11,476 bases of DNA, taken from assembly GCA_018830365.1 (NCBI GenBank), contig JAHJSK010000078.1:1-11476 (forward strand), in the 5' to 3' direction. Source of the stretch: Patescibacteria group bacterium (GTDB lineage Bacteria > Patescibacteriota > Minisyncoccia > Minisyncoccales > CG1-02-41-26). Below are positions 1-11,476 of the stretch, in pieces. The stretch's first letter is position 1, and every line of letters starts with the position of its first letter. The notes beneath the pieces were generated by a model that ran no database searches, was not told where the DNA came from, and saw only the letters and a list, made by a program, of their open reading frames with translations. Position numbers and translations under genes: made by a program.

Positions 1-138
1 GAATTAATGGGATGGGATAAGGATACAGCAAAAGCGTTTGTAAAAGCAGAAAAAGAAGCAAAAGAAAAAAAAGAAAAAGAGGAGGAGAAAAAAGAAAAAG
101 AGGAAGAGGCAAACAAGGAAAAGGAAAATAAAACATAA
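1..138 (+). CDS. 3' end of an upstream gene (partial; start is outside the window). Lys/Glu-rich low-complexity tail ...WDKDTAKAFVKAEKEAKEKKEKEEEKKEKEEEANKEKENKT*
   Basis: Frame 1 is open from the window edge to TAA at 136-138, checked codon by codon. The listed minus-strand ORF 4..252 (poly-F/L) is the mirror image of this purine-rich coding run. P1 starts 15 nt downstream, so the layout is operon-like. Confidence 0.4.
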   Translation, partial: ELMGWDKDTAKAFVKAEKEAKEKKEKEEEKKEKEEEANKEKENKT

Positions 139-152
139 GTGTAAATAAAAAT

Positions 153-575
153 ATGTTTCAAGAACCAATTCAAAAAGAAAATTTATCCGACACTTCAGAT
201 TTAATAAGCTCCGAAGACATTGCTTTAATTCTTTCAGCAATTTGCGTGTCAAGCGGCATAGAACAAGAGGAGGAAATTGAAAAAGTGTCTTATCAAGTTG
301 CCCGAGTTTTATTTAACGACTTGCCGTCTGAATTGCTCGCCAAATCTTTAAATGAAAACGAAGGTTTTTCTTTGGAAATAGCTGAAACAATTGCTCAAAA
401 AGCCGACCGCTATATTTTTTCGCAAATAGAAAAATCCGTTTCAAATGAAGAATCGGCCGTGCCAGATGAAGAACCTTTTTCAGAAAAATCCGAAATCATT
501 GAAAGCCCTATGGCTGAAAATCCTTTAACCAAAAACCCTCCAAAAGATGATGTTTATCGCGAACCAATAGAATAG
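153..575 (+). CDS. Small acidic protein P1 (140 aa), paralog of P2 (2575..3066). The C-terminal tail is ...DDVYREPIE
   Basis: ATG..TAG ORF with no signal peptide or TM segment. The core VARVLFNDLPSELLAKSLNENEGFSLEIAETIAQKADRYIF aligns with P2 VGNVLMGLFPPENFLASLQVELNIEKEKSQNIFQEINRFIF. The last 30 nt (545-574) match the 3' end of P2 at 29 of 30 positions. Confidence 0.6.
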   Translation: MFQEPIQKENLSDTSDLISSEDIALILSAICVSSGIEQEEEIEKVSYQVARVLFNDLPSELLAKSLNENEGFSLEIAETIAQKADRYIFSQIEKSVSNEESAVPDEEPFSEKSEIIESPMAENPLTKNPPKDDVYREPIE

Positions 576-740: not shown

Positions 741-746
741 CTGGAT

Positions 747-1991
747 TTATTGGGTTTTAGTAATCGTACTCCCAACTTTCAGAATGTTCTGCACCTCGGC
801 TATCGCTCCTGAAAAATTTCCGCCTTTCCATTCAACCACTGTTCCAATTTCGCGATCCAAATAAAATTCAACTAATTGGTCAGTCTTACTAACAGCTTCT
901 TCTTCGGTGAGTTTTGGTTGCTCTTCCTTCAATCGGTTCAATGTTTGGAGATAAATCCCAACTATTTTTTCCGCGTCTGCTTTGGCTTTTTTCCTCGCTG
1001 CGTTTGCAAGGTTTCCTTGGATGATTTCCTCTTGAGCACTCTCATAGACCGCTTGTCTTTTTTTGAGTACTTCGGGCGACCATACAAAGTTGGGGAAAAT
1101 TATTCGTGTAGTTTCAAGCCCGTATCCATTTATCGCCTTTTCAACATCTGATTTTTCATCTACTTTACCCGCAATGTCCTCTTTCCAATCTTTGCCAACA
1201 TTTTTTTTCTGTCCATCGCCAAAAAAATCCTTTATTTCCAGGTTTCTAAAAAGGGTGTTAATAGCGGTCTCGGCTTTTGCTCGAATCGCAACCTGGTAGT
1301 TTTGTGTTTCGTATACCGCGCGGTAGACATTTTTTCTTATTTCTTTCTCTTTTTTTTCTTCAATGTCGCTCGTGGTGTCATTTGCATTTGGGTCAATATC
1401 ATCCAGGATTTTAATCCCCCAGAGAGCCCCTGGCAAAGTCACTGTTCCGCCCCCTTTCATATCAAGTTCATTTCTACTTTTCTCTCCTTCGTCATTTTTT
1501 TTTGGCAAAAAGAGTTCAATGAAATGTTCTTGTGTGCTTATTATGTTCCCACTCATAACCCATGGAACAAGAAATTTTGGGCCTGGTCCTTCAATCTTCC
1601 AGAAAGCTCCACAAACCGTTGTAACCAGCCGCTGTTTTTCTTGGATTTGCGCAAACCATTCCCGTAAAAAGCACACTATCACAATTCCAACAACAAGCCA
1701 CAAAGCCCATTGCCACCACCAGCCTGTCTGACAAAACCAAAAAGGCGCGCATGCGTACACAAGGGCAATCACGCAAACAAGAAAATAGCTGAAGAATGCC
1801 ACTTTTCCAACCCACGGTTCCGGCTCTGGCAATTTAAACTCTTTCTCCTTTGCCACTTTTCCCCGCGGCTTTGATTCTGGCAATCCAAGCTTCTTTTTCC
1901 TTTCCTCCTTTTTCATTTTTTTCGCCAACACCGCCCGAATCACCCAAGCAACGAAAATCAAAATCCCTGTCAAAATTATAATCCAAAACAT
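747..1991 (-). CDS. SPFH/band-7 (stomatin/prohibitin/HflK-like) domain membrane protein, 414 aa, with three N-terminal TM segments
   Basis: Complete ATG..TAA ORF. The revcomp of 1992-2006 gives UGGAGGUGAuuuagaAUG, a strong SD with a 6-nt spacer. TM helices are MFWIIILTGILIFVAWVI, VAFFSYFLVCVIALVYACAPFWF and WWWQWALWLVVGIVIVCFL. The SPFH-like entry motif is GAFWKIEGPGPKFLVPWVMSGNIISTQEHFIEL. A later alanine-rich coiled segment (EEIIQGNLANAARKKAKADAEKIVG) is typical of the band-7 C-terminal region. The family assignment is by eye. Confidence 0.6.
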   Translation of the reverse strand: MFWIIILTGILIFVAWVIRAVLAKKMKKEERKKKLGLPESKPRGKVAKEKEFKLPEPEPWVGKVAFFSYFLVCVIALVYACAPFWFCQTGWWWQWALWLVVGIVIVCFLREWFAQIQEKQRLVTTVCGAFWKIEGPGPKFLVPWVMSGNIISTQEHFIELFLPKKNDEGEKSRNELDMKGGGTVTLPGALWGIKILDDIDPNANDTTSDIEEKKEKEIRKNVYRAVYETQNYQVAIRAKAETAINTLFRNLEIKDFFGDGQKKNVGKDWKEDIAGKVDEKSDVEKAINGYGLETTRIIFPNFVWSPEVLKKRQAVYESAQEEIIQGNLANAARKKAKADAEKIVGIYLQTLNRLKEEQPKLTEEEAVSKTDQLVEFYLDREIGTVVEWKGGNFSGAIAEVQNILKVGSTITKTQ

Positions 1992-2332: not shown

Positions 2333-2497
2333 ATTTTCAAACGAAACGAGAGAAATAAAAATTCATTTTTTAAAAAATGAGCTCCGTAATATTTATGCCA
2401 TGGCATTATTATTACCTATGGTGATAAATTAAACATATTTAATAATAAACCCCGGACATTTGGAAGGGGTGTATTTTTGTTGCGCGAGTGGTTGCTG

Positions 2498-2538: not shown

Positions 2539-2574
2539 TGTTATTAGCTAATAGATTTTTAGTAAAAAGTATTT

Positions 2575-3066
2575 ATGTTGCAACAATATAATCAAAAAGA
2601 ACTCCAAGGATTGTTTGAAGTTTTACCCGAAGAATTAAAAGACGCTATTTTATCTGAACAAACCGCGGAAACAATCAGAAAAATTTGTGAACGGTATAAA
2701 ATAGAAGAAAGAAATATGTCTGAAATAGCAGGATTAGTTGGCAATGTTTTAATGGGTCTTTTCCCGCCGGAAAATTTTCTTGCATCTCTTCAAGTGGAGT
2801 TAAATATAGAAAAAGAAAAATCGCAAAATATTTTTCAAGAGATAAATCGTTTTATTTTCTTTCCTGTAAAAAATTTTCTTATAGAATTTTATCCAGAAAT
2901 TAAATTCGCTCATGGTGGCAAAGTCGCGGACGAAAGCATTGCCATAGAAGAAAAATTTGCGAAAGAAAAATTAGAAAAAATTGAATCGGAAAAAGCCGCG
3001 CCAATAGAGGAAAGCAAGGAGACAAAAAAAACAGGAGATGATGTTTATCGTGAACCAATAGAATAA
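2575..3066 (+). CDS. Small acidic protein P2 (163 aa), paralog of P1. The C-terminal tail is ...GDDVYREPIE
   Basis: ATG..TAA ORF with no signal peptide or TM segment. It has a K/E-rich C-terminal region and a core homologous to P1. The 3' 30 nt (3037-3066) are nearly identical to P1 545-574. Confidence 0.65.
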   Translation: MLQQYNQKELQGLFEVLPEELKDAILSEQTAETIRKICERYKIEERNMSEIAGLVGNVLMGLFPPENFLASLQVELNIEKEKSQNIFQEINRFIFFPVKNFLIEFYPEIKFAHGGKVADESIAIEEKFAKEKLEKIESEKAAPIEESKETKKTGDDVYREPIE

Positions 3067-3073
3067 AAAAAAG

Positions 3074-3098
3074 ATTTACAGAGGCCCGTCCTCTGTAA
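3074..3098. repeat. GC-rich palindrome family member 1: tTTACAGAGG-cccgt-CCTCTGTAAa
   Basis: 10-bp perfect inverted repeat with a 5-nt loop. It has outer TTAC/GTAA ends like members 2-5. Confidence 0.7.
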
Positions 3099-3142
3099 AA
3101 ACCTCTGCGAAAAGGTGAATTTGATAATTAAAAAAGATTTAG

Positions 3143-3167
3143 CATTACACCGTCCCGGACGGTGTAA
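3143..3167. repeat. GC-rich palindrome family member 2: aTTACACCGTCC-c-GGACGGTGTAAt (25-bp perfect palindrome). An identical copy lies at 3535-3559.
   Basis: Verified base by base. Confidence 0.75.
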
Positions 3168-3186
3168 TTTAATAATTCAGGGAATA

Positions 3187-3239
3187 AAACAATGTATCGC
3201 CGCCAGGCGGCGATACATTGCCTGGCGGCGATACATTGT
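3187..3239. repeat. Composite element made of a 31-bp perfect palindrome CAATGTATCGCCGCC-a-GGCGGCGATACATTG (3189-3219) followed by an 18-bp tandem duplicate CCTGGCGGCGATACATTG (3220-3237). The left arm can therefore pair with either of two right arms.
   Basis: 3202-3219 and 3220-3237 are direct repeats with one mismatch. 3187-3206 is exactly complementary to 3220-3239. The element is preceded by the direct-repeat motif AATTCAGGGAATAAAAC (3173-3189), which recurs at 3324-3340. Confidence 0.7.
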
Positions 3240-3280
3240 TGATTGCCTATAAACAAAGGAGTGGTTTACGGAAAATAAAA

Positions 3281-3307
3281 TTTTTACGGAGGTCAGACCT
3301 CCGTAAA
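3281..3307. repeat. GC-rich palindrome family member 3: ttTTACGGAGGTC-a-GACCTCCGTAAaa (27-bp perfect palindrome)
   Basis: Verified base by base. A degenerate relative, ATGGAGGTCTGACCTATGTAA, sits at 2241-2261. Confidence 0.7.
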
Positions 3308-3340
3308 ACTATTCCGAAATTTTGAATTCAGGGGATAAAA

Positions 3341-3363
3341 CTTACAGAGGTCCGACCTCTGTA
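3341..3363. repeat. GC-rich palindrome family member 4: TTACAGAGGTC-c-GACCTCTGTAA (23-bp perfect palindrome)
   Basis: Verified base by base. It is preceded by AATTCAGGGGATAAAAC (3324-3340). Confidence 0.7.
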
Positions 3364-3415
3364 AAAAGATTTTAATTTAATTTTAATTGAATTGAATTAT
3401 TCACAAGGAAACTCT

Positions 3416-3462
3416 TTTTTTGGGGTTGCTTTTCGCGTCCTCGCGTATTATTATTATTATTA
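3416..3462 (+). promoter_or_regulatory. Promoter module R2, the second copy of R1. It has -35 TTGCTT (3426-3431), a 17-nt spacer, and -10 TATTAT (3449-3454). It is predicted to drive a roughly 200-nt leader and the T4SS-like operon starting at 3660.
   Basis: Direct repeat of 2498-2538. Only the loop of the CGCG hairpin differs (TCCT versus TGTT). Confidence 0.4.
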
Positions 3463-3534
3463 GTTTTATTATTTTAAAATTGATTGATGCAATAGCGCAA
3501 AGGGTTTGTTAAGCATAATGTTTTAAAATTAATT

Positions 3535-3559
3535 TTTACACCGTCCCGGACGGTGTAAA
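3535..3559. repeat. GC-rich palindrome family member 5, an exact duplicate of member 2 (TTACACCGTCC-c-GGACGGTGTAA), located inside the predicted leader
   Basis: Verified base by base. Confidence 0.75.
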
Positions 3560-3609
3560 GCTATTTGAAAAAATATAGCGGAGGGTTGACCAATATAACC
3601 TGCATTCGC

Positions 3610-3646
3610 CTTGTCTCGCTAAGCGAGGCAAGCGGGGCTTTATTTG
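3610..3646 (+). terminator. Terminator-like hairpin, a possible attenuator, 14 nt upstream of the 3660 start codon. It reads CUUGUCUCGC-uaa-GCGAGGCAAG followed by CGGGGCUUUAUUUG.
   Basis: 10-bp stem with one G-U pair and a 3-nt loop, followed by a U-rich tract. Its position inside a leader rather than after a gene argues for conditional termination. Confidence 0.4.
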
Positions 3647-3659
3647 ATAGATAACCATT

Positions 3660-4070
3660 ATGGAATTTAAAGTGCCAAAATTTTTAGAAAGAGAATCAAA
3701 ATTTTTTAGCATCTTAACCTTCAAGCAATTAGCTTGCGTCGGGATTATTGGTCTTGTTTTATTTATTTTGTATTATATTGTTCCCAAGTCAACCTTTTTC
3801 TTTTTAGTCGTTTTTTTCGGAGGAGGAAGCATGGTTTTAATGATTGTCAATATTGAGGGAGTGCCTCTTTACCAATTGGCCGGACATTCTTTGAATTATT
3901 TGCTTTCTTCTAAAAAATTTATTTGGTCAAGAAAAGAAAAGCCATTTATTAAATTATTAAACAAAGAAAGAGAGGAAGCGAAAGAAAAAAAAGCAGACGC
4001 GCCTTTAAAGATTTCCCCGGAAAGCAGCTTGGGCAAATTATCGTCCCGAATTGAGCGAGGGGTGCAGTAG
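3660..4070 (+). CDS. PrgI/VirB3-like small 2-TM T4SS protein (136 aa)
   Basis: The N-terminus MEFKVPKFLERESKFFSILTFKQL resembles the VPK...F.LT.RQL opening of PrgI/VirB3-family proteins. It is followed by two TM helices (ACVGIIGLVLFILYYIV and FFFLVVFFGGGSMVLMIVNI). It lies directly upstream of a VirB4-family gene, which is the canonical virB3-virB4 arrangement. No SD. Confidence 0.55.
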   Translation: MEFKVPKFLERESKFFSILTFKQLACVGIIGLVLFILYYIVPKSTFFFLVVFFGGGSMVLMIVNIEGVPLYQLAGHSLNYLLSSKKFIWSRKEKPFIKLLNKEREEAKEKKADAPLKISPESSLGKLSSRIERGVQ

Positions 4071-4074
4071 ATAA

Positions 4075-4264
4075 CGCAAAACTCAAAGCGCAAAACGCAA
4101 AACTAAAACGAAAATGTTAAAACTAACGCAAAATATTGATTCTGTTATTTTTCGTTGAGAGCAAGTAAATTTGAGGCTGAATTTCCTAAGGGATTGGGGA
4201 AACATCAAAAAAAGATTTAAGTTTTAAAATAAACTTTGAGTTTTGCGTTTTGAGTTTTGCGTTT
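4075..4264. repeat. Imperfect inverted repeats of GCAAAAC-family simple sequence. Left arm 4075-4110, right arm 4235-4264 (tandem TTTTGAGTTTTGCG x2). They bracket a roughly 125-bp AT-rich spacer and abut the VirB4-N start codon.
   Basis: GCAAAACTCAAA (4076-4087) is exactly complementary to TTTGAGTTTTGC, which is present twice in the right arm. Confidence 0.6.
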
Positions 4265-4270
4265 AATCGT

Positions 4271-4930
4271 ATGTCTCAATCATTTTCACAACAATTTTTA
4301 GAAATAGCTGACATCAAAGAAGGCGTGCTGGTTTTAAAAAACAGAGCTATGCGGGGCGTGCTAATGGTGTCCTCAATAAATTTTGATTTAAAATCAGAAG
4401 ATGAGCAAAAAGCTGTTATTTACCAATTTCAGGGATTTTTAAATTCCTTAGATTTTTCCTGTCAAATTATTGTTCAATCAAGAAAATTAAACATCACTGG
4501 TTATTTTGACAAATTAAAAGAATTGGAAAGGGCTCAAGAAAATGAACTTTTAAAAATTCAAACCACTGAATATCGGAAATTTATTGAGGAAATGGTAGGC
4601 GGAGGAACGATTATGAGAAAAGAATTTTTACTCGTTATTCCTTTTACTCTTTTTGAAACCAAGGGAATAATTGGCGGGAGCATGAGCGCTCTTAAAGGAG
4701 TTTTGGGAAAAAAAGAAAATTTTTTCGGATTAGGAGAAGAAAATTTCCAAAGATGCCGAGACCAACTTTATCAAAGAATGGAGTTTGCGGCTATTTGTTT
4801 GCGGCGATGCGGATTAACATCCATCCCTTTGACAACGCCAGAATTAATTGAACTTTTTTGGAGCCTTCATCATCCAAAAGAAGCGGAGTATGGTTATTAT
4901 CCAGAGATATTGCCAGAAATGATCAAATGA
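4271..4930 (+). CDS. virB4: VirB4-family N-terminal domain encoded as a separate ORF (220 aa from ATG 4271; the ORF track extends it to TTG 4250 inside the repeat)
   Basis: The stretch FLEIADIKEGVLVLKNRAMRGVLMVSSINFDLKSEDEQKAVIYQFQGFLNSLDFSCQIIVQS matches the conserved N-terminal block of Gram-positive-type VirB4/TcpF/PrgJ/ConE proteins. The ORF is in the same frame as the next one and ends with TGA. 220 aa plus 595 aa gives about 820 aa, the usual VirB4 length. Confidence 0.55.
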   Translation: MSQSFSQQFLEIADIKEGVLVLKNRAMRGVLMVSSINFDLKSEDEQKAVIYQFQGFLNSLDFSCQIIVQSRKLNITGYFDKLKELERAQENELLKIQTTEYRKFIEEMVGGGTIMRKEFLLVIPFTLFETKGIIGGSMSALKGVLGKKENFFGLGEENFQRCRDQLYQRMEFAAICLRRCGLTSIPLTTPELIELFWSLHHPKEAEYGYYPEILPEMIK

Positions 4931-4966
4931 AAATTTTAAATTTCAAATTTTAAATTTCAAATTTTT
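4931..4966. repeat. 36-bp tandem repeat (AAATTTTAAATTTCAA x2 plus ATTTTT) separating the two VirB4 ORFs. It contains an in-frame TAA at 4937-4939.
   Basis: Direct reading. It belongs to the same AATTTTCAA-type simple-sequence family as 589-636. Confidence 0.7.
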
Positions 4967-6754
4967 ATGTTTTCTTTTTTAAAGAAAAAAAATACTATTG
5001 AAGAATTGAAAATTGAACCAGAAGAATTTTTTGTTCAGGACCTTATTGCGCCACCTTCAATAGAAATATCAGGGAACCGTTTAAAATTGGGAGAAAGATT
5101 TTCCAAGACCTTTTTTGTTTTTTCTTATCCGCGATATCTTTCCACTGGCTGGATGTCTCCAGTAATCAATCTCAATTATCCTCTGGATATTTCTTTTCAT
5201 ATTCATCCCATAGACACCAATGAAATTTTAAAAAAACTGCGAAAAAAATTAACAGAAGTGCAAGCAGAATTAATGGAAAGAGAAGAAAAGGGACTGATCC
5301 GCGACCCGACCTTAGAAACAGCGTACAATGACATTGAAACACTAAGGGACTCTCTTCAGACAGTTCAAGAAAGAGTTTTTCAATTAGGAATTTATGTAAC
5401 TATTTACGCGGACAATGAAAAAGAACTAAGCGAGGTTGAAACTAAATTAAGGTCCATATTTGAGCCCCGGCTAATTTATGTTAAGCCCGCGCTATTAAGA
5501 GAAAAAGAGGGTTTTACTTCCACCGCGCCATATGGATTAGACGAAATTATGGTTCACACTCCAATGAACACGGAACCCTTGTCCAGCATTTTTCCTTTTA
5601 TCTCTCCTGATCTAAGCGCAAATGAAGGAATTTTGTATGGTTTGAATAAGCACAACAATTCTTTGGTTCTTTTTGATCGCTTTACTTTGGAAACAGGAAA
5701 TATGTGCGTTTTTGGCAAGTCCGGCTCTGGCAAAAGCTTTTTCTGCAAGTTGGAGACCTTAAGATATTTAATGCAAGGAGTGGATTGCATTGTTATTGAC
5801 CCGGAAAACGAATATGAATGGCTCGCTAACGCGGTTGGCGGGTCTTTTTTCAAAATTTCCTTAACTTCTCCTCATCATTTAAATCCTTTTGATTTGCCTG
5901 CGCCAAAAGAAGATGAAAAAGCGGAAGATGTTTTAAGGGCTAATGTGATAAACTTGGTGGGACTTTTTAGAATAATGTTAAGCAATTTGACTCCGCAGGA
6001 AGACGCTATCATAGACAGGGCTATTGCTGAAACATATTATGCCCGAGACATTACCGCCGATTCGGACCCAGCCACATGGAAAGACAAAACACCTTTAATG
6101 TCGGACTTTCAGACAATTTTGGAAGGAATGGAAGGAGCCGAGTCCTTGGTGGAGCGCGTAAGAAAATTTACCACTGGAAGCTATGGCCAATTTTTTAACA
6201 ACCCCTCTAATGTTTCTGTGGACAAAAACCTTGTTGCATTTGGGATTAGAGATATGGAAGAAGAATTAAGGCCAATGGCAATGTTTCTCATTTTAAGATA
6301 TATTTGGAATAATGTAAAAGCAGAATTAAAAAAAAGAATTTTGTTAGTGGACGAGGCATGGTGGTTGATGCGGACAGAAGATGGCGCTTCTTTTCTTTTC
6401 GGCATTTGCAAGAGGTCTAGAAAATATTGGTTAGGCGTTTCCACTATTACGCAGGACATTAGCGATTTTATGAAATCAACTTATGGCCAGCCAATTATTA
6501 CCAACTCGTCATTGTTGCTTTTGATGAAGCAATCGCCAGCTGCCATTGATTACGCGCAAAAAACATTTAATTTAACTGAGCAGGAAAAATTTCTTTTATT
6601 GGAATCCGATGTGGGGGAGGGGATTTTCCTTGCGGGCAAAAAAAGAGTGGCTTTGAAAGTAATCGGTTCTTACGCGGAAGAGCAAATTATTACCAGCGCT
6701 CCGGAACAAGTGGAAAAAATAAAACAAGCTAAGAAGAGATTGAATAACATTTGA
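4967..6754 (+). CDS. virB4: VirB4/TraC/TrbE-family T4SS ATPase, middle and C-terminal domains (595 aa)
   Basis: Walker A is VFGKSGSGKSFF. Walker B is the VirB4-typical ILLVDEAWWL (DEAW). The family-typical downstream block is RSRKYWLGVSTITQDISDF. The middle-domain pattern is FFVFSYPRYLSTGWMSPVINLNYPLDISFHIHPID. Confidence 0.85.
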   Translation: MFSFLKKKNTIEELKIEPEEFFVQDLIAPPSIEISGNRLKLGERFSKTFFVFSYPRYLSTGWMSPVINLNYPLDISFHIHPIDTNEILKKLRKKLTEVQAELMEREEKGLIRDPTLETAYNDIETLRDSLQTVQERVFQLGIYVTIYADNEKELSEVETKLRSIFEPRLIYVKPALLREKEGFTSTAPYGLDEIMVHTPMNTEPLSSIFPFISPDLSANEGILYGLNKHNNSLVLFDRFTLETGNMCVFGKSGSGKSFFCKLETLRYLMQGVDCIVIDPENEYEWLANAVGGSFFKISLTSPHHLNPFDLPAPKEDEKAEDVLRANVINLVGLFRIMLSNLTPQEDAIIDRAIAETYYARDITADSDPATWKDKTPLMSDFQTILEGMEGAESLVERVRKFTTGSYGQFFNNPSNVSVDKNLVAFGIRDMEEELRPMAMFLILRYIWNNVKAELKKRILLVDEAWWLMRTEDGASFLFGICKRSRKYWLGVSTITQDISDFMKSTYGQPIITNSSLLLLMKQSPAAIDYAQKTFNLTEQEKFLLLESDVGEGIFLAGKKRVALKVIGSYAEEQIITSAPEQVEKIKQAKKRLNNI

Positions 6755-6806
6755 CAATTGACAATTGACATTTGACAATTGACAATTGACATTTGACATT
6801 TGACAA
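6751..6806. repeat. Heptanucleotide microsatellite (TTGACAW)x8, with units TTGACAA or TTGACAT. It overlaps the VirB4 stop codon (TGA inside the first unit) and lies about 100 bp upstream of the pilin-like gene.
   Basis: Eight perfect 7-bp units counted by index from 6751 to 6806, then TTAG. Each unit carries the sigma70 -35 consensus hexamer. Confidence 0.85.
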
Positions 6807-6836
6807 TTAGCAAATAATTTTCAAGCTCCAATTTTT

Positions 6837-6895
6837 GTCCCTTCGGGACATCACCCGTAGGGTGATCGTCCTGCGGATGACCACCCGTAGGGCGG
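6837..6895 (+). promoter_or_regulatory. GC-rich multi-hairpin leader element. It contains GTCCC-uuc-GGGAC, AUCACCC-gua-GGGUGAU, GUCC-ugc-GGAU and CCACCC-gua-GGGCGG. CACCCGTAGGG occurs as a direct repeat at 6853-6863 and 6883-6893.
   Basis: Four consecutive triloop hairpins in a roughly 60-nt island of about 60% GC within AT-rich DNA, ending 13 nt before ATG 6909. Confidence 0.4.
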
Positions 6896-6908
6896 CAATG
6901 AAATTCCA

Positions 6909-8066
6909 ATGAATCAATTTTCAAACAACACTAAAAAAATATTAATCGGTTTTTTATTGGTCGGATTTGTTTTTTCGTCATCGTTGGTTTTGGCTGCGCA
7001 AGCCCAGCAAACGCGGACTTCTGTTTTTGAAATAAATTATCCGACAATACCCGGCGCGTACACGCCTCAACAAATTTCATCGCGGCCAGAATCAGAGCGC
7101 TTGCCTCTTTACATTAATTATTTTCTCCGTTTGTTTTTTATTCTTGCTATTGGAATTGCCGCGGCAATGGTTCTTTTTGGCGGGGTTCTTTATTTGGCTT
7201 CTCGAGGAATGGACAAGCCAGCGCTTTTGATTTTGGCAAATGCCCGCATACAACAAGGGCTCTTGGGCCTTTTAATCATTGTGTCCGCGTATTTGGTTTT
7301 GGCTGTTATTAATCCTCAATTATTGGTCTTTAAGACAATGATACCGACCGCGCCCGGAGACATTACTGTTGGCGAACCTGCTTTTAACAACAAAGTTCCT
7401 TTTGTAAAAGCGCCCATTGGCTGTTTAATGGATAATTTTTTAAAATCCCTTATGTCAACAACAACTGCGTCAACAACTTGCAATGGAAACAATTATACTC
7501 AACCAAATGTCTACAAAATTGAACTTCCTCTTTGGGAGGCATTAAAACTTTTAGATTGCGCGCAAACATTGTCAGAAGAGATTGTGGTTTTATTGGAAGA
7601 TTGCAAGTGCGGGAAGTCAATATATCATGTAGCAAGACCATTTGGCTCTGACAAAACAACTTGCGTGGGGGGAGTAGACGCGTTAGCTCGAATAGGGAAA
7701 TGCGATGAAAATTGTAAAAATTGCGGAGAAGGGGAAAAGGTTTGGGGAGGTACCATATATATATGTCCCACTTCAACCTTAGCAATAAAGAGAGATGAAC
7801 TCGCGGGTATTATGAGCAAATTAAAAGGAAGCGAGTTTAAAACAAATTTTGAGCAAATAGAGTTGATTAGAAAAACATTGGGAACGAACTCTGCTGAGTA
7901 TTTAACCCGGGAATTGCAAGGATATAGTTTTCAAGAGGATTTTAATGAGCAGGCAAAAAAATTAAAAGAACAGGGATACGATGTTGCGGAGACAATAACT
8001 TCGCAATATCCTGAAAAATGCAAAATTGACCCTTTTACTTTTTATGCGCCGATCAAGGGAGAATAG
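6909..8066 (+). CDS. Secreted membrane protein (385 aa) with a signal peptide, a VirB2/TrbC pilin-like pair of hydrophobic helices, and a Cys-rich C-terminal domain
   Basis: The signal peptide is MNQFSNNTKKILIGFLLVGFVFSSSLVLAAQA|QQ. The two hydrophobic helices FLRLFFILAIGIAAAMVLFGGVLYLAS and GLLGLLIIVSAYLVLAVINP are separated by a short loop. The C-terminal domain has more than 10 Cys (CKCGKS..CVGG..CDENCKNCGEGE..ICPTS). No SD. Confidence 0.6.
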   Translation: MNQFSNNTKKILIGFLLVGFVFSSSLVLAAQAQQTRTSVFEINYPTIPGAYTPQQISSRPESERLPLYINYFLRLFFILAIGIAAAMVLFGGVLYLASRGMDKPALLILANARIQQGLLGLLIIVSAYLVLAVINPQLLVFKTMIPTAPGDITVGEPAFNNKVPFVKAPIGCLMDNFLKSLMSTTTASTTCNGNNYTQPNVYKIELPLWEALKLLDCAQTLSEEIVVLLEDCKCGKSIYHVARPFGSDKTTCVGGVDALARIGKCDENCKNCGEGEKVWGGTIYICPTSTLAIKRDELAGIMSKLKGSEFKTNFEQIELIRKTLGTNSAEYLTRELQGYSFQEDFNEQAKKLKEQGYDVAETITSQYPEKCKIDPFTFYAPIKGE

Positions 8067-8144
8067 TTTGTAGCTTATTAGCTTGTAGCTTATTAGGGAA
8101 TTTCCTAAGAAGCTAAAAAGCTAAAAAGCTAAGAAGCTAAAAAC
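8067..8144. repeat. Spacer built from TAGCTTATTAG x2 (8071-8081 and 8086-8096), a GGAATTTCC centre, then the octamer (AAGCTAAA)x4 (8110-8141) ending 3 nt before the ATG of the giant gene. The two halves are imperfect inverted repeats of each other.
   Basis: Direct reading. CTAAGAAGCTA (8105-8115 and 8128-8138) is the revcomp of TAGCTTATTAG with one mismatch. Confidence 0.7.
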
Positions 8145-11100
8145 ATGTTTCACAATTCCCACATAAAAAAAATAATAATCAGTGGCTTATTGCTTGGATT
8201 GATTTTTCAATCCAGCATCTCTTTTGCCGTGGCAACAAATCCTTTGCCAAATCCTTATCCAGAAGAACTGCTTAAACACAACACAAATGTGCTTTACGAA
8301 AACGAAAGATTTAGTTTGTTTTTGGTTTTGAGCCGTTTGTCATTGGAAGAGCTTCAAGAAATGCTGAAAGAATGTTTGGCTATGGCTTTTCGTACCGAAG
8401 GAGAATTTAAAATGAGCACAACAACACTTAGCGCAACTATTGACCAATCCTTTAAAGATGGATTGTCTAATTTTTTAGCTGAGTATTTGAGTCCGGGCAG
8501 TGATGATTATGCCGAAGCGTTTTATAAAAAATTAAAAGATGAAATAAATGAAAAATATGAAACATGCACAAGCACAGAAGCGGAAAGACCGGATTGCATT
8601 CAAAAATGCGTGAACCAAGAAGGAATTTCCGAAACAGAGTGCGCGAGAAAATGCAGGAAAACAAGCAAAGCAATTTCCGACCTTTTGGCTGATTTTTTAA
8701 CTGGGGATTTAAGATCTAAACTTCCAAGTGAAATTCAAAAAATTCTTAATGAGCGATTAAGAGATGTTATTTTTTCAGATAAAGTGAACGCTATTTTAAG
8801 CACAAGCACTTTGGCTGTTTTAAACAAGGCGCTCGGCGAAGCTTTGAATAAAACTATTGTTGATGAAGTTCCTGCTTTAAAAGAAACCTTGGGCAGAAAA
8901 GTAACAAGTTATATGGCGCCTTCGCTTGTAAAGCCGCTGGAAAAAATAGATCGACTTTTATCATTTAAAATAGAGGATTTAAAAACATATATAGACAATA
9001 AAATAGCGAGCACTACCGCGACAATGGCCGCTAAATTAAAAGAAGCGGTGACAAAGACCAAAAATACCGCAAACGCGGGGACAAATCTTGATAGAACAGG
9101 GTGTTGTAACATTGCTTATTTTAGGGGCGAACATTGGTATTGGAGCTTCACAGAAAGAAAATGCAAGTACGCAGACAGAGCTTATATAAACGATCACTGG
9201 AGTACAATTTTATTAGGGATTAGAGATTGCGGCACCAAGGATACCAATATAATACCCGGGGAAACTATGTCCCCGCCTCAAAATCAGATAGATTTTTGCG
9301 AGATGTCATCGGATTCCTGCTGGCAGAATAGCGTGTGCGCGCAATGCGACAAAGCGGAAACATGGAAAGAAGTATTTAATATTGGGCAATGGTGGAGCTC
9401 GTTCACTAAAAATTTATTCACTGCTTTGCTCGCTATGCCTCAGCAAATAATGCTCGCTATGATTGATGTTGCGGCTCACACTTTAACAGAGTACGCCCAG
9501 GTCTGGGTGGAAGACGAACTCATTGCTCCGCTCCAGCCCTATTTTAATAAATTCGCGGAGTTTCAGAAAAAACTCCATAAAGCGCTGAATTACACGGTTG
9601 CGGATCTTTTGCCTAAACAAGCAAAAGTTTTATTGACAAGCAACGCTGACCAGATATTGGACATGATATGCAAGGGCGCACAAAAAGGCGGGATAGATAT
9701 AGGATCAGAAGAAGAAGAAATCAAAAAAAATAGAGAGGCGGCTTGTAATACTTACAAAGAACTTCACCAAGACCTCTTAAGCCAATTAGCAGACACCGGG
9801 CATTTGGGCAAGGAAATCAAGGACGCTTTAAACAGCACGGTTTTTAAATTACTTCCGTCAAATTTGCAACAACTTCTCGCAAGCTCTACCGCTGAGCTTC
9901 TCTGGCCTGAAATAACTAATATTAAAAAATTAATTTTAGGAACGCCAAAGCAAATTATTTGCGGCGAGCTTTTTAATAAAAATTTTGAAGTAAAAATTGA
10001 CGACACTAATTCATCGGTTTTTGAAAAATGCACTACAGCGGGACCAATAGGATTAAGAACAACGCAAGGCACGATTGGACTCCTTCCTTACATAGACAAA
10101 ACCAGTACTTTTTGGACAGGACTAAACAGCGGACTCAAAGAAAAATACGCTATTTCCTGCCCCATTATTTGGTATGTGTGTCAAAACCCTCTTTCCCCAT
10201 GGGGCGCAAAGGTTGGAGATGTGCTCGTTAATATTATAAGTAGTCAATGCGCGAGCATAGATAAAAAAACAAGCAACAAATGCGGCTGGAACAATTATAG
10301 CGCGCCTGCAAACGCAAATTTGCCTGACGAGTTTAAGCCCGGGTGCGCGGCTTGTAAAACTTTAAATTCTTCTCTGGCATTTAGTTTGTTTAAATATGGA
10401 ATGGAGCAAAAATATGGCACCAGCACTGCGGCTGTATCTCCAACTAACCCAAGACTAAATGAGCGCGCGGCTTATCAATGGCTTTATGTGGCTTTTCCGC
10501 TTTTAAGAGACAGCGCCAACATTTCAAATTTTAATGGCGGGACAAAGCAAGTGGCAGTAGTGGCAAGAGGATTTAAAGAAGCAGAGTGGGATGATAATGT
10601 CCCAAATAGCACAAGCAGTATTGTCCAAGAAATAAAATATTATTCTGGCACTAGTGAACTTCCTCCATCAGCCACTGCGTTGGCGCAAACTTTTATAACT
10701 TGGATGACCAATGAAGCGTCTGGCAAAGAAATTCTTACTTCCATTCCATTGGGCGTGATCAAGCCATTTAATCCCGGGGAGGCAACATTGCTAAGAGACG
10801 CTGGCAAAGGTTCTAAAAATGAAGAGTTCCTTGCTTACACGCCTTATGAGTTTTTGGAACAAGAATTGTGCCGCAAAGTAATCGCGGATTTTAAAAAAGA
10901 TTATTCCACTTCTACCATAGAAGCGATTATGGCAACTGAAGCAAATAAATTAGCCCAAATAAGCGGGATTCCTTATTCAGTTGAAAGCTTGCGACATACA
11001 ACTATGGCGCAAGCGGAACAAATTCTTTTGAGCAATGACGAAATTGACGCTGAACGCAAAGCCAGTTATCTTACTTGTTTTGCGTTGGACAAAAAACCAG

Positions 11101-11476
11101 CCGCGCTATTTGGTTTGGACCAAAAACTGATTGAATATGTAAGGCCTGAACCGTACAAAGTTCTTTTTACTTTAATCAAAGAAAAATTAAAAGAGGACGA
11201 AAGACCAACCCTTTTAAATAAACTTTTAATTTATCTTTATAGATGGAACCCTGTTGACCTTGCTTGCGCGATATTGACGAAAAAATCATATGACGCAGAC
11301 GAGCGAGCTGTTATTGATAATGCTTCAAGCACTCCAGCTGAGATAGCCGCTGCGCAAAAAAGAATAGAAAGCAAAAAAACAATGACTGATTTTGCCTGCA
11401 ATTTCTTGGGCACTACTATGGGAGATCGGATAAAAAAATATTTGCCAAAAAAGGAGATGATTTGTCTTATCGCGGA
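8145..11476 (+). CDS. Giant secreted Cys-rich protein, more than 1110 aa. The 5' end is complete and the 3' end runs past the window edge.
   Basis: Frame 3 is open from ATG 8145 to the window end. It was checked codon by codon at 9051-9120 and 10200-10260, where other frames have TAG/TAA. The signal peptide is MFHNSHIKKIIISGLLLGLIFQSSISFA|VA. There are many Cys clusters (CIQKCVNQ..ECARKCRK, GCCNIAYF, CEMSSDSCWQNSVCAQCD, CAACKTL). It is mostly hydrophilic. All listed minus-strand ORFs in this span are antisense artefacts. Confidence 0.65.
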   Translation, partial: MFHNSHIKKIIISGLLLGLIFQSSISFAVATNPLPNPYPEELLKHNTNVLYENERFSLFLVLSRLSLEELQEMLKECLAMAFRTEGEFKMSTTTLSATIDQSFKDGLSNFLAEYLSPGSDDYAEAFYKKLKDEINEKYETCTSTEAERPDCIQKCVNQEGISETECARKCRKTSKAISDLLADFLTGDLRSKLPSEIQKILNERLRDVIFSDKVNAILSTSTLAVLNKALGEALNKTIVDEVPALKETLGRKVTSYMAPSLVKPLEKIDRLLSFKIEDLKTYIDNKIASTTATMAAKLKEAVTKTKNTANAGTNLDRTGCCNIAYFRGEHWYWSFTERKCKYADRAYINDHWSTILLGIRDCGTKDTNIIPGETMSPPQNQIDFCEMSSDSCWQNSVCAQCDKAETWKEVFNIGQWWSSFTKNLFTALLAMPQQIMLAMIDVAAHTLTEYAQVWVEDELIAPLQPYFNKFAEFQKKLHKALNYTVADLLPKQAKVLLTSNADQILDMICKGAQKGGIDIGSEEEEIKKNREAACNTYKELHQDLLSQLADTGHLGKEIKDALNSTVFKLLPSNLQQLLASSTAELLWPEITNIKKLILGTPKQIICGELFNKNFEVKIDDTNSSVFEKCTTAGPIGLRTTQGTIGLLPYIDKTSTFWTGLNSGLKEKYAISCPIIWYVCQNPLSPWGAKVGDVLVNIISSQCASIDKKTSNKCGWNNYSAPANANLPDEFKPGCAACKTLNSSLAFSLFKYGMEQKYGTSTAAVSPTNPRLNERAAYQWLYVAFPLLRDSANISNFNGGTKQVAVVARGFKEAEWDDNVPNSTSSIVQEIKYYSGTSELPPSATALAQTFITWMTNEASGKEILTSIPLGVIKPFNPGEATLLRDAGKGSKNEEFLAYTPYEFLEQELCRKVIADFKKDYSTSTIEAIMATEANKLAQISGIPYSVESLRHTTMAQAEQILLSNDEIDAERKASYLTCFALDKKPAALFGLDQKLIEYVRPEPYKVLFTLIKEKLKEDERPTLLNKLLIYLYRWNPVDLACAILTKKSYDADERAVIDNASSTPAEIAAAQKRIESKKTMTDFACNFLGTTMGDRIKKYLPKKEMICLIA

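What the first reader, a model, noticed from the sequence alone, without database searches (positions are those of the whole stretch)
3660..11476. Compact T4SS-like block: PrgI/VirB3-like, split VirB4, pilin-like Cys-rich protein and a giant Cys-rich surface protein
The gene order small 2-TM protein followed by a VirB4-family ATPase (GKSGSGKS Walker A, DEAW Walker B) is the canonical virB3-virB4 core. Next comes a protein with VirB2/TrbC-like topology (signal peptide plus two hydrophobic helices) that carries an unusual Cys-rich extracellular domain, and then a secreted Cys-rich protein of more than 1110 aa. No VirB6, VirB8, VirD4 or relaxase homolog is visible in the 7.8 kb shown. This looks like a reduced, possibly host-contact or adhesion-oriented T4SS variant. 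Extracellular disulfide-rich proteins fit a surface-exposed or episymbiotic lifestyle.
Basis: partly seen in the sequence, partly recalled or inferred. Interest (0 to 1): 0.55.

Follow-up and report, generated by a model that had tools for sequence, protein, structure and literature searches.

The report
Known Patescibacteria type IV secretion locus
This is an ordinary copy of the chromosomal type IV secretion system of the ultra-small Patescibacteria (CPR), described in 2020-2025; its one undescribed detail is that the pilin-like gene and the giant cysteine-rich gene are two halves of a single gene in relatives.

Summary
Window 3660-11476 encodes, on the + strand:
- PrgI/VirB3 (Pfam score above its curated cut-off);
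- a TrsD-like protein, which is the N-terminal VirB4 domain as a separate gene;
- a VirB4 ATPase with both Walker motifs;
- a 385-aa protein with a signal peptide, a two-helix pilin hairpin and a Cys-rich ectodomain;
- the first 1110 codons of a 1497-aa secreted protein.

A VirB6-like gene lies directly upstream, and its last 45 codons are window 1-138. The neighbours at 153-3066 are conserved parts of the same neighbourhood.

The locus is the chromosomal Patescibacteria T4SS already published (McLean 2020, Wang 2023, Quinonero-Coronel 2025). It derives from Gram-positive conjugation machinery, has no relaxase or coupling protein nearby, carries VirB2-like pilins, and usually sits beside dnaA. 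In Saccharibacteria it is essential for epibiotic growth.

In the 80 best of 343 related loci the TrsD/VirB4 split is universal. VirB4 divergence tracks DnaA, so inheritance is vertical.

I did not find the following described. 81% of pilin-domain proteins in these loci carry long Cys-rich extensions. The window's 385-aa and giant proteins align end to end with one 1651-aa protein in a relative. Structure predictions were too poor to use.

The parts
1..138 (+). Last 45 codons of a 701-aa polytopic membrane protein, VirB6-like.
   Evidence: An ORF is open from the window start to a stop at 136-138. In the 99.6%-identical contig L081 the full gene is 1049-3154, with about 7-8 hydrophobic helices in its first 350 residues. 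It clusters with the gene found upstream of PrgI in 46 of 80 loci. The family profile hits TrwI, the R388 VirB6 (PDB 7o3v_F), at E 9.6e-7. 11 of 42 members hit Pfam TrbL, best E 4.5e-8.
153..575 (+). 140-aa soluble protein ending DDVYREPIE; a conserved neighbour (my 'c15' position, between VirB6 and SPFH).
   Evidence: It is a paralogue of 2575-3066. The tail motif is restricted to these two families within the 80 loci.
747..1991 (-). SPFH/Band 7 membrane protein, 414 aa; a conserved neighbour on the opposite strand.
   Evidence: Pfam Band_7 E 4.9e-8, 33.7 bits against a cut-off of 23.6. Three N-terminal hydrophobic helices. SPFH genes occupy the same position in 27 related loci. A 12-of-12 sigma-70 consensus match lies at 2134-2107 on the - strand.
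2575..3066 (+). 163-aa soluble protein ending DDVYREPIE; lies directly upstream of PrgI in 36 of 80 loci.
   Evidence: The family has 2474 representatives at E<=1e-3. 142 of the top 150 carry the D.YRE..E-type tail. No Pfam, NCBIfam or PDB match.
3660..4070 (+). PrgI/VirB3-like membrane protein with two transmembrane helices, 136 aa.
   Evidence: Pfam PF12666 30.7 bits against a cut-off of 27. Two hydrophobic helices. Matches positions 17-115 of the Mycoplasma VirB3-VirB4 fusion model. Present upstream of TrsD in 67 of 80 loci.
4070..4266 (+). Spacer that folds into a roughly 28-bp stem built from heptamer arrays, enclosing about 130 nt.
   Evidence: Tandem arrays at 4073-4114 and 4235-4264. 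RNA MFE -58.6 kcal/mol, z -5.3.
4271..4930 (+). TrsD-like protein: the N-terminal domain of VirB4 encoded as a separate gene (219 aa from the ATG; 226 aa from the TTG at 4250).
   Evidence: NCBIfam VirB4_plasma positions 107-212 at E 1.8e-7, TrsD/TraD at E 7e-5, CD1110 positions 11-104 at E 1.5e-3. The orthologues in L081, L082 and L084 carry a precomputed PF26593 TraC-like hit. Present in 74 of 80 loci.
4967..6754 (+). VirB4 ATPase, middle and C-terminal P-loop domains, 595 aa. Walker A at nt 5714-5737, Walker B at 6350-6361.
   Evidence: 343 relatives were found, and every title among the 80 kept that names a lineage names a Patescibacteria one.
6747..6808 (+). (ACAATTG)n heptamer array in the VirB4-to-pilin spacer; its copy number varies between strains.
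   Evidence: The only indel against the 99.6%-identical L081 is 28 nt, four units, at this array.
6909..8066 (+). T4SS_pilin-domain protein, 385 aa: signal peptide (about residues 1-31), helical hairpin (about 61-134), Cys-rich ectodomain (about 150-385, 11 Cys).
   Evidence: Hydropathy. A profile built from relatives scores the L081 orthologue at E 7.7e-33. 33 of 35 aligned homologues hit PF18895, best E 9.3e-14, but this protein itself does not. The AF2 hairpin H61-101/H104-134 has pLDDT of about 70-77 while the rest is below 50. Seven invariant Cys among 6 homologues.
8064..8143 (+). Roughly 30-bp hairpin spacer between the pilin-domain gene and the giant gene.
   Evidence: MFE -33 kcal/mol, z -5.9. 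Absent in L084, where the two genes are 8 nt apart.
8145..11476 (+). First 1110 codons of a 1497-aa Sec-secreted, mostly helical, Cys-rich protein. It is the detached C-terminal part of a pilin-headed giant protein.
   Evidence: It aligns to residues 398-1649 of the 1651-aa P0010, while the 385-aa protein aligns to residues 29-387 of the same protein. P0010 has the pilin domain at residues 10-141.

Best explanation
The window is the chromosomal 'Patescibacteria-type' type IV secretion system of a Paceibacteria/Nealsonbacteria-like CPR bacterium.

Shown: three consecutive genes (PrgI/VirB3, TrsD, VirB4) are collinear with a single VirB3-VirB4 fusion protein of Mycoplasma ICEs. With the VirB6-like protein encoded just upstream, they provide the parts of a cytoplasmic-membrane translocon and its motor. 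The locus is inherited vertically and is under strong constraint. No relaxase or coupling ATPase lies nearby.

Inferred: after Sec export and signal-peptide cleavage, the 385-aa protein sits in the membrane through its VirB2-like helical hairpin. VirB4 then extracts it into a surface stub or pilus, as VirB4 does for VirB2 in Gram-negative systems. Its disulfide-rich ectodomain and the separately secreted 1497-aa partner would form the fast-evolving outer surface that recognises a host cell. In relatives these two are the two halves of one polypeptide.

Whether the machine imports host material or exports effectors remains open, both here and in the literature. The function is host interaction rather than conjugation.
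For: **Identity of the parts**
- HMM and PDB matches.
- Collinearity with VirB4_plasma NF045975: PrgI covers positions 17-115, TrsD 107-212, VirB4 272-893.

**Lineage and conservation**
- 343 related loci were found. Every record title among the 80 kept that names a lineage names a Patescibacteria one.
- The gene order VirB6 - c15 - SPFH(-) - o163 - PrgI - TrsD - VirB4 - (c14) - pilin-domain genes - jag/yidC/yidD/rnpA(-) - dnaA - dnaN recurs across them.

**Vertical inheritance and constraint**
- Pairwise VirB4 identity tracks DnaA identity (Spearman 0.80, 1275 pairs).
- Mean VirB4 identity is 66.5%, higher than DnaA (59%), YidC (49%) and DnaN (45%).

**No conjugation genes**
- None appear in the gene and Pfam listings of L081, L082 and L084, nor among the recurrent or large neighbours in the 80 loci.

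**Pilin module**
-.

**The pilin-like and giant proteins are one unit**
- P0010 (1651 aa) equals p385 residues 33-384 (38% identity) plus the giant's residues 44-1496 (31%).
- The 2095-aa protein of L001 matches both as well.
- The split state, with the giant carrying its own signal peptide, is conserved in L081, in L084, and on the 9683-bp contig shared by P0003 and P0007.

**Fast-evolving surface**
- Against L084, identity is VirB4 93%, TrsD 87%, PrgI 72%, giant 54%, p385 47%.
- 68 of 84 complete pilin-domain proteins carry extensions. Their median Cys content is 4.45%, against 0.46% for other proteins.

**Literature**
- The T4SS genes, including the pilin array, are essential for epibiotic growth of Southlakia, and no recognisable coupling protein or relaxase was found (PMC10633639).
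- TrsD, PrgI, VirB6 and VirB2-like genes cluster near virB4 and dnaA across Patescibacteria (PMC12102498).
Against: - No experiment exists for any Paceibacteria system. Essentiality is shown only in one Saccharibacterium.
- The window's 385-aa protein has no direct Pfam pilin hit.
- The pilin-family profile finds no solved VirB2 or TraA pilin, so the link to true VirB2 rests on topology and the Pfam family name.
- A subunit carrying a 240-aa ectodomain, or about 1500 aa in the fused relatives, is hard to pack into a VirB2-type helical filament.
- No small 'major pilin' gene lies within the 21 kb of L081.
- No VirB8-like or VirB1-like gene, and no c14-type small membrane protein, was found in this contig.
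- dnaA proximity is not seen on this contig.
- Both structure models are of low confidence.
Confidence: 0.85

Rival explanations
1. Same machine, different job. It is a DNA or nucleotide import device, like H. pylori ComB or the archaeal Ced system, pulling host nucleic acid into a cell that cannot make nucleotides.
For: - The VirB4 gives a weak match to the archaeal DNA-import ATPase CedB (E 1.3e-12, 47 bits, far below the cut-off of 700).
- In L084 a ComEC 'Competence'-domain gene sits directly upstream of PrgI.
- comM lies a few genes away in 12 loci.
- The 2025 survey proposes import of DNA or other macromolecules and notes comF, recG and radA next to the T4SS in class ABY1 (PMC12102498).
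Against: - comEC is dispensable for growth of Southlakia while the T4SS is essential, so the essential role does not run through the known competence channel (PMC10633639, PMC12857230).
- No DNA-binding or DNA-processing gene is conserved inside the operon.
- The CedB match is only the shared P-loop fold.
Confidence: 0.2
2. The 385-aa and giant proteins are ordinary Sec-secreted surface or adhesin proteins that merely neighbour the T4SS. The helical hairpin is then just a membrane anchor, not a T4SS-handled pilin.
For: - Both have classical signal peptides.
- There is no direct Pfam pilin hit for the window protein.
- The ectodomains are very large for pilins.
- Structure models are uninformative.
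Against: - Pilin-domain genes follow VirB4 on the same strand in most of the 80 loci, often as 2-3 tandem paralogues.
- The domain is the Pfam T4SS_pilin family in 33 of 35 homologues.
- 16 of the 84 complete pilin-domain proteins are pilin-sized, under 200 aa.
- The corresponding pilin array is essential in Southlakia (PMC10633639).
Confidence: 0.12
3. It is a conjugative element (ICE or plasmid) whose relaxase, coupling protein and other genes lie outside the window.
For: The best VirB4 model is a conjugative-transposon family, CD1110. All core parts derive from Gram-positive conjugation systems.
Against: - No relaxase, T4CP or integrase appears in 21-25 kb around the locus in three close relatives, nor among the recurrent neighbours in 80 loci.
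- The neighbours are housekeeping genes (ksgA, yidC, rnpA, dnaA, dnaN).
- VirB4 divergence tracks DnaA.
- Relaxases are rare in the phylum and rarely near virB4 (PMC12102498).
Confidence: 0.02
4. It is a decaying remnant: VirB4 broken by stop codons and the pilin-giant gene broken by an inserted hairpin.
For: - TrsD and VirB4 share a reading frame, as do p385 and the giant. In both pairs the ORFs are separated by repeat-filled spacers containing stop codons.
Against: - The TrsD/VirB4 split is found in 74 of 80 loci and no fused VirB4 was seen.
- Identity to L084 is 87-93% with intact motifs.
- The giant has acquired its own signal peptide, and the split is conserved between lineages only about 50% identical.
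Confidence: 0.01

Closest known systems
Patescibacteria (CPR) chromosomal T4SS: Southlakia epibionticum SEML1_0006-0019 (Wang et al. 2023, PMC10633639); the TM7x locus (McLean et al. 2020, PMC7427843); the phylum-wide survey (Quinonero-Coronel et al. 2025, PMC12102498)
   Same: - VirB4 with a separate TrsD, PrgI/VirB3, VirB6 and VirB2-like pilin-domain genes downstream.
- No relaxase or T4CP nearby.
- Chromosomal and vertically inherited.
- Next to dnaA in relatives of this window.
   Different: - This Paceibacteria lineage has one pilin-domain gene with a 240-aa Cys-rich ectodomain plus two giant secreted proteins (1497 aa and at least 2015 aa). The Saccharibacteria loci have an array of 4-6 small pilins.
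- dnaA is not on this contig.
- The operon spacers are filled with hairpin repeats.
- The SPFH protein and the two D.YREPIE-tail proteins are conserved neighbours that the main text of those papers does not mention.
Gram-positive conjugative T4SS (MPF-FATA): pGO1/pSK41 Trs (TrsC, TrsD, TrsE), pCF10 Prg (PrgI, PrgJ, PrgH), C. difficile CTn (CD1110)
   Same: - Gene order VirB3-like, TrsD, VirB4.
- VirB4 scores above the cut-off of the CD1110 model.
- VirB6-like polytopic protein.
- LysM-CHAP hydrolase in relatives.
- Monoderm envelope.
   Different: - No relaxase, coupling protein or PrgB-type adhesin was found, and no VirB8-like gene was recognised.
- It has VirB2-like pilin-domain proteins, which Gram-positive systems lack.
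- It is a core chromosomal locus, not a mobile element.
VirB2/TrbC/TraA conjugative pilins of Gram-negative T4SS
   Same: - Signal peptide followed by a two-helix hydrophobic hairpin with a short polar loop.
- Encoded next to VirB3/VirB4.
   Different: - 385 aa rather than about 70-120 aa mature length.
- No sequence match to PF04956 or to solved pilins.
- A large disulfide-rich C-terminal ectodomain.
- Polymerisation has not been shown.
Mycoplasma ICE VirB3-VirB4 fusion ATPase (Mbov_0397 family, NF045975)
   Same: PrgI, TrsD and VirB4 of the window tile this single 894-aa model in order, at positions 17-115, 107-212 and 272-893.
   Different: Here there are three separate genes. Scores are far below the family cut-off (256.6 bits against 590), so this is a relative, not a member.
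DNA-import T4SS relatives: H. pylori ComB, archaeal Ced
   Same: VirB4-family ATPase without a relaxase. An import role has been proposed.
   Different: Only weak P-loop similarity to CedB. No ComB or Ced accessory proteins. No evidence of DNA handling.

Membership tests
Patescibacteria-type T4SS (as defined in PMC12102498) | VirB4 of the Patescibacteria clade, related to MPF-FATA VirB4 | tested here: met
   The best curated model is conju_CD1110, 369 bits against a cut-off of 325. 343 relatives at 57-75% identity were found, and every title among the 80 kept that names a lineage names a Patescibacteria one. I did not build a phylogeny.
Patescibacteria-type T4SS | Separate TrsD gene (N-terminal VirB4-like) adjacent to virB4 | tested here: met
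   Window 4271-4930. NCBIfam TrsD E 7e-5 and VirB4 N-terminal positions. Precomputed PF26593 on the orthologues. Present in 74 of 80 loci.
Patescibacteria-type T4SS | PrgI/VirB3 homologue adjacent | tested here: met
   PF12666 30.7 bits against a cut-off of 27.
Patescibacteria-type T4SS | VirB6 homologue near virB4 | tested here: met
   The gene ending at window 138. The family profile hits TrwI at E 9.6e-7, and 11 of 42 members hit TrbL. The protein itself gives no direct Pfam hit.
Patescibacteria-type T4SS | VirB2-like pilin gene(s) near virB4 (PF18895/PF04956) | tested here: inconclusive
   There is no direct hit for the window protein even at E<=10. The fused relative P0010 hits PF18895 at E 0.0043. 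33 of 35 homologues hit PF18895. A profile built from relatives scores the orthologue at E 7.7e-33. Membership therefore rests on transitive homology only.
Patescibacteria-type T4SS | No relaxase and no coupling protein next to virB4 | tested here: met
   None in the Pfam listings of L081 (21 kb), L082 (25 kb) and L084 (15 kb), nor among the recurrent or large neighbours. The whole genome was not available.
Patescibacteria-type T4SS | Location near dnaA / the replication origin (true of some classes) | tested here: inconclusive
   dnaA lies within 10 kb in 51 of 80 related loci and in L082. It is not on the 23.9-kb contig that matches this window.
Conjugative MPF-FATA T4SS (mobile element) | Relaxase plus type IV coupling protein (VirD4/TcpA), carried on an ICE or plasmid | tested here: not met
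   The neighbours are housekeeping genes, and VirB4 co-diverges with DnaA.
Conjugative MPF-FATA T4SS | VirB8-like (PrgL/TraM) and VirB1-like hydrolase subunits | tested here: inconclusive
   No such gene is in the window or L081 by Pfam. A LysM-CHAP or LysM-M23 hydrolase lies beside ksgA in relatives. VirB8-likes are usually recognisable only by structure, which I could not test.
VirB2/TrbC pilin (PF04956) | Sequence match to the family | tested here: not met
   No hit for the window protein. 1 of 35 homologues hits at E 0.002. The profile search of PDB finds no pilin.
VirB2/TrbC pilin | Signal peptide plus two-helix hydrophobic hairpin | tested here: met
   Hydropathy. AF2 helices 61-101 and 104-134 at pLDDT of about 70-77.
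VirB2/TrbC pilin | Polymerises into an extracellular filament | not testable with these tools
   Needs cryo-ET, cryo-EM or biochemistry.

The most novel reading that the evidence does not exclude
In Paceibacteria the T4SS 'pilin' hairpin may be a modular, T4SS-handled anchor that displays hypervariable, disulfide-rich host-recognition ectodomains of up to about 2000 aa. In this lineage one such protein has undergone fission into a 385-aa anchor subunit and a separately secreted 1497-aa subunit that presumably re-associate on the surface. The machine would then be primarily a presenter of giant adhesins rather than a classical thin pilus. Separately, the operon's spacers may be colonised by elements like rRNA intervening sequences (long stems, with or without a four-helix-bundle ORF) that could drive RNase III processing of the polycistronic mRNA.
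Probability: 0.3. Interest if true: 0.6.

Novelty: new member of a known kind. Interest (0 to 1): 0.3.

Why it matters
The Patescibacteria T4SS is one of the few machines known to be essential for the epibiotic lifestyle of this very large and mostly uncultured bacterial radiation. Its substrate and direction of transport are still unknown.

This window adds no new system. The comparative data around it sharpen the picture for the largest class, Paceibacteria, in three ways:
- The motor (VirB4) is more conserved than DnaA.
- The 'pilins' are mostly large, cysteine-rich and fast-evolving.
- A pilin-headed giant protein can exist as one gene or as two.

This gives concrete candidates for the host-recognition surface and a natural fusion/fission pair to use in interaction tests. 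It also flags two conserved but unannotated neighbour families, the D.YREPIE-tail proteins and SPFH, as possible cytoplasmic and membrane accessory parts.

Tried and rejected
- **Exact look-up of the window's VirB4:** not on record. The near-identical source-like contig was reached instead through the 385-aa protein.
- **Read-through or TGA recoding to join the two VirB4 ORFs:** rejected, because two different in-frame stops (TGA, TAA) separate them.
- **AlphaFold2 of the 385-aa protein (6-sequence alignment):** mean pLDDT 50.9. Only the hairpin is moderately confident. Foldseek against PDB gave nothing at E<=0.001.
- **AlphaFold2 of the giant protein (5 sequences):** mean pLDDT 38.5, so unusable, and I did not run a fold search on it.
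- **Diversity-generating retroelement idea:** raised because a 23S_rRNA_IVP (Avd-like) gene sits between the two giant genes. No template/variable repeat pair and no reverse transcriptase were found in L081, so I dropped it.
- **Rfam scan of the window:** no family at gathering score.
- **Promoter and terminator scan:** counts are no higher than in shuffled sequence.
- **Pfam and NCBIfam on the giant proteins, the p385 ectodomain, c14, c19 and c20:** no hits.
- **Clustering artefact:** my first 'PIL' cluster wrongly absorbed 23 minus-strand genes next to ksgA. The two I scanned are LysM-CHAP hydrolases.
- **Shared 12-mer:** GAATTTCCTAAG in two spacers is not above chance when mismatches are allowed.

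Full report
**What is in the window.**
The window is 11,476 bases at about 31-44% G+C. It appears to be a whole NCBI contig from a 'Patescibacteria group bacterium' MAG: its truncated last protein is on record as KKA09_03170, partial, on a contig of exactly 11,476 bp.

ORF listing and translation give the following, on the + strand unless noted:
- the 3' end of a gene (1-138);
- a 140-aa ORF (153-575);
- an SPFH/Band 7 gene on the - strand (747-1991);
- a 163-aa ORF (2575-3066);

**Checking the observation.**
- The 136-aa protein has two hydrophobic helices. It passes the curated threshold of Pfam PrgI (30.7 bits against 27).
- The 595-aa protein passes the curated threshold of the CD1110-family VirB4 model (369 bits against 325), covering model positions 173-734. 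It matches the solved VirB4 C-terminal domain of a thermophilic Firmicute (4ag5, E 4.9e-41) and, weakly, TrwK of R388. GKSGSGKS lies at residues 250-257 and DEAW at 462-465.
- The 226-aa protein matches only N-terminal VirB4 positions (VirB4_plasma 107-212, CD1110 11-104) and the TrsD/TraD family.
- PrgI, this protein and the 595-aa protein tile the Mycoplasma ICE VirB3-VirB4 fusion model in order, at positions 17-115, 107-212 and 272-893.
- The two VirB4 ORFs are in the same frame but separated by TGA and TAA, so they are truly separate.
- The 385-aa protein has a signal peptide and two long hydrophobic helices, and all 11 of its cysteines lie after residue 171.

**Where it comes from and how conserved it is.**
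A scan of one genome per GTDB species with the VirB4 found 343 relatives. The best 80, at 57-75% identity, are metagenome-assembled genomes. Every record title among them that names a lineage names a Patescibacteria one: Nealsonbacteria, Staskawiczbacteria, Minisyncoccales, Paceibacterota and others.

I called ORFs in all 80 loci, clustered them and annotated cluster representatives. The recurrent order is: comM - LysM-CHAP hydrolase(-) - ksgA - VirB6-like - 'c15' - SPFH(-) - 'o163' - PrgI - TrsD - VirB4 - small membrane protein 'c14' - one to three pilin-domain genes - jag, yidC, yidD, rnpA (all -) - dnaA - dnaN.

Counts of loci, many of which are truncated contigs:

| Gene | Loci of 80 |
|---|---|
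| TrsD | 74 |
| PrgI | 67 |
| yidC | 61 |
| dnaA | 51 |
| VirB6-like | 46 |
| o163 | 36 |
| SPFH | 27 |

No VirB4 in the set is longer than 642 aa. The TrsD/VirB4 split is therefore the normal state, not damage.

Pairwise VirB4 identity correlates with DnaA identity (Spearman 0.80, 1275 genome pairs). VirB4 is on average more conserved (66.5%) than DnaA (59%), YidC (49%) or DnaN (45%). This is a vertically inherited core locus, not a mobile element.

**Flanks of this very locus.**
The 385-aa protein led to an ENA contig of 23.9 kb (L081) that is 99.6% identical to the window. It differs by 16 substitutions and one 28-nt indel. Window base 1 corresponds to L081 base 3017.
- Upstream lies a 701-aa protein with about 7-8 hydrophobic helices and a long hydrophilic tail. 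Its last 45 codons are window 1-138.
- It belongs to the cluster found upstream of PrgI in relatives. That family's profile hits TrwI, the VirB6 of R388 (7o3v_F, E 9.6e-7), and 11 of 42 members hit Pfam TrbL.
- A VirB6 is therefore present.
- Downstream, the giant ORF is 1497 aa with 48 Cys. It is followed by a 133-aa 23S_rRNA_IVP four-helix-bundle gene and a second secreted giant of at least 2015 aa with internal Cys-rich repeats.
- No relaxase, coupling ATPase, integrase or VirB8-like gene appears in L081, L082 or L084.

**The pilin-like protein.**
- The window's protein gives no Pfam hit, even for the hairpin alone at E<=10.
- An iterative search over the loci starting from its first 165 residues collected about 100 proteins. 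Of 35 aligned homologues, 33 match Pfam PF18895 (T4SS_pilin, best E 9.3e-14) and one matches TrbC/VirB2 weakly.
- The profile built from relatives scores the L081 orthologue at E 7.7e-33.
- The AlphaFold2 model is poor overall (pLDDT 50.9). It does give a two-helix hairpin, residues 61-101 and 104-134, at pLDDT of about 70-77.
- The profile finds no solved pilin in PDB. I therefore file the protein as a divergent T4SS_pilin-domain protein with VirB2-like topology, not as a proven VirB2 homologue.

**The Cys-rich extensions and the giant protein.**
- Among 84 complete pilin-domain proteins in the 80 loci, only 16 are shorter than 200 aa. 50 are at least 400 aa and 12 are at least 800 aa. The domain is N-terminal in 79.
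- The extensions have a median of 4.45% Cys, against 0.46% in the other proteins of these loci.
- A helix followed by a C.CG.[ST] motif recurs after the hairpin in several of them and in no non-pilin protein.
- The giant protein has only four other homologues in the 5.8-billion-sequence search, besides the window's own truncated entry.
- One of them, P0010 (1651 aa), lies directly after VirB4 and c14 in a contig that continues into jag, yidC, rnpA and dnaA. It carries the pilin domain at its N-terminus.
- P0010 aligns to the 385-aa protein over its residues 29-387 (38% identity) and to the giant over its residues 398-1649 (31%). The 2095-aa protein of L001, the closest VirB4 relative, also matches both.
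- The window's two genes are therefore the two halves of what is one pilin-headed giant protein elsewhere.
- The split form is kept in at least three lineages that are only about 50% identical in these proteins. In it the giant has its own signal peptide, which has no counterpart in P0010.
- Surface parts evolve much faster than the motor. Against L084, identity is VirB4 93%, TrsD 87%, PrgI 72%, giant 54% and pilin-domain protein 47%.
- The AlphaFold2 model of the giant is unusable (pLDDT 38.5). It is mostly helical, with a small Cys-rich module near residues 320-400.

**How it most likely works.**
Shown by sequence: a VirB6-like channel protein, a VirB3-like anchor, a two-gene VirB4 motor with intact ATPase motifs, and Sec-exported pilin-domain and giant proteins.

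Inferred from what is established for other T4SSs:
- VirB3 tethers VirB4 to the membrane.
- VirB4 extracts membrane-embedded VirB2 for pilus assembly.
- The hairpin protein would therefore be inserted by Sec, cleaved near residue 31, and handed by the VirB4/TrsD/PrgI/VirB6 complex to a surface structure.
- Its disulfide-rich ectodomain, with the giant partner, would form the variable host-contact face.

What passes through the machine is unknown. The literature offers export of proteins (PMC10633639) or import of DNA and other macromolecules (PMC12102498, PMC12857230). The ComEC-domain gene next to PrgI in L084 is a small hint towards import. Against that, comEC is dispensable in Southlakia while the T4SS is not.

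**Comparison with what is known.**
This is the system reported in:
- TM7x: VirB4, B6 and B2 plus an array of small secreted proteins (PMC7427843);
- Southlakia epibionticum: shown by Tn-seq to be essential, pilin array included, with no recognisable coupling protein or relaxase (PMC10633639);
- a survey across thousands of Patescibacteria genomes: TrsD as the most abundant component, PrgI, VirB6, VirB2-like arrays, few relaxases, and proximity to dnaA, dnaN, rnpA and ksgA (PMC12102498);
- a 2025 T4SS review (PMC12857230).

The window is a new member of that known kind. Word searches of those papers, and one library search, found no description of the following:
- the predominance of long Cys-rich extensions on the Paceibacteria pilin-domain proteins;
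- the fusion/fission relationship seen here;
- the conserved SPFH neighbour;
- the D.YREPIE-tail neighbours.

**Verdict.**
The system is already known. Interest is modest (0.3), and it lies mainly in the pilin-giant fusion/fission and the side observations.

Noticed in passing
window 153-575 and 2575-3066 (also L003 3575-4063, L034 7612-8070, and others): Two paralogous soluble proteins (140 and 163 aa) end in the same DDVYREPIE tail and flank the SPFH gene. Both families are conserved between VirB6 and PrgI in relatives. Within the 80 loci the tail motif occurs only in these families (50 of 54 members, plus 2 unclustered ORFs). The 163-aa family has 2474 representatives at 50% clustering, and 142 of the top 150 carry the tail. 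No Pfam, NCBIfam or PDB match. They may be a cytoplasmic accessory or adaptor of the T4SS that docks through its C-terminal peptide.
   Followed up: partly
window 747-1991 (-), promoter-like site 2134-2107 (-): An SPFH/Band 7 membrane protein is conserved on the opposite strand between the two D.YREPIE genes in 27 related loci. A perfect 12-of-12 sigma-70 consensus match lies upstream of it. It may be a membrane-microdomain scaffold for the machine.
   Followed up: partly
window 4070-4266 and 8064-8143; L081 15700-16440: The operon spacers are built from tandem heptamer or octamer arrays arranged as inverted repeats, and they fold into long near-perfect hairpins (z -5.3 and -5.9). In L081 the same kind of stem brackets a 133-aa 23S_rRNA_IVP gene just beyond the window end (z -11.7). 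This resembles rRNA intervening sequences, so the stems may be RNase III processing sites.
   Followed up: partly
Related loci, e.g. L018 1459-1830, L049 2818-3183 and 3944-4309, L047 3089-3451 and 6165-6527, L046 9525-9887: 18 genes of the 23S_rRNA_IVP (four-helix-bundle) family, all on the operon strand, sit in 15 of the 80 loci, most of them in intergenic positions inside the T4SS operon (before PrgI, between PrgI and TrsD, between TrsD and VirB4, after VirB4). Two loci have two copies. A second small inserted ORF type (cluster c34, e.g. L010 939-1373) was not identified. Together they look like small selfish inserts riding a highly expressed operon.
   Followed up: partly
window 6747-6808: The (ACAATTG)n array between VirB4 and the pilin-domain gene is the only indel between the window and the 99.6%-identical L081, a difference of 4 units (28 nt). 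Its copy number therefore varies between near-identical strains. The array also contains repeated TTGACA hexamers. It may be a contingency or phase-variation tract.
   Followed up: partly
window 3075-3099, 3283-3307, 3341-3365 (also 3535-3559; 2160-2215 and 2285-2335; 2494-2535 and 3421-3460): The unusually long non-coding stretches 1992-2574 and 3067-3659 hold REP-like palindromes (TTTACAGAGGTCNGACCTCTGTAAA, 3 copies against 0 expected), two AAAATCCTGTC...GACAGGATTT hairpins, and a duplicated 45-nt segment upstream of both the 163-aa gene and PrgI. In relatives these genes are usually only a few bases apart.
   Followed up: partly
L081 16428-21110 (beyond the window end): A second secreted giant protein of at least 2015 aa (82 Cys in the first 1561 residues) contains at least three copies of a Cys-rich repeat of about 130 aa (...CP..W.PY..W.TT...G.GT.C.C...H.W.N...E.C...C.Y...). 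No Pfam match.
   Followed up: no
L084 1207-2364: In a close relative (VirB4 93% identical) a 385-aa ComEC 'Competence'-domain gene lies directly upstream of PrgI, and FtsZ lies before that. This may hint at a link between the T4SS and DNA uptake.
   Followed up: no
Related loci, e.g. L003 6968-7402, L026 2974-3405; absent from window 6755-6908: A small membrane protein of about 103-246 aa ('c14', with a conserved ...P.(W/F)T... C-terminal motif) sits between VirB4 and the first pilin-domain gene in 24 loci and probably in L082 (155 aa). It is missing in this window's lineage. No Pfam match.
   Followed up: no
window 142-343: 8 of the 16 substitutions between the window and L081 fall within about 200 nt, at the end of the VirB6-like gene and the start of the 140-aa gene. 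This is a local hot spot of divergence.
   Followed up: no
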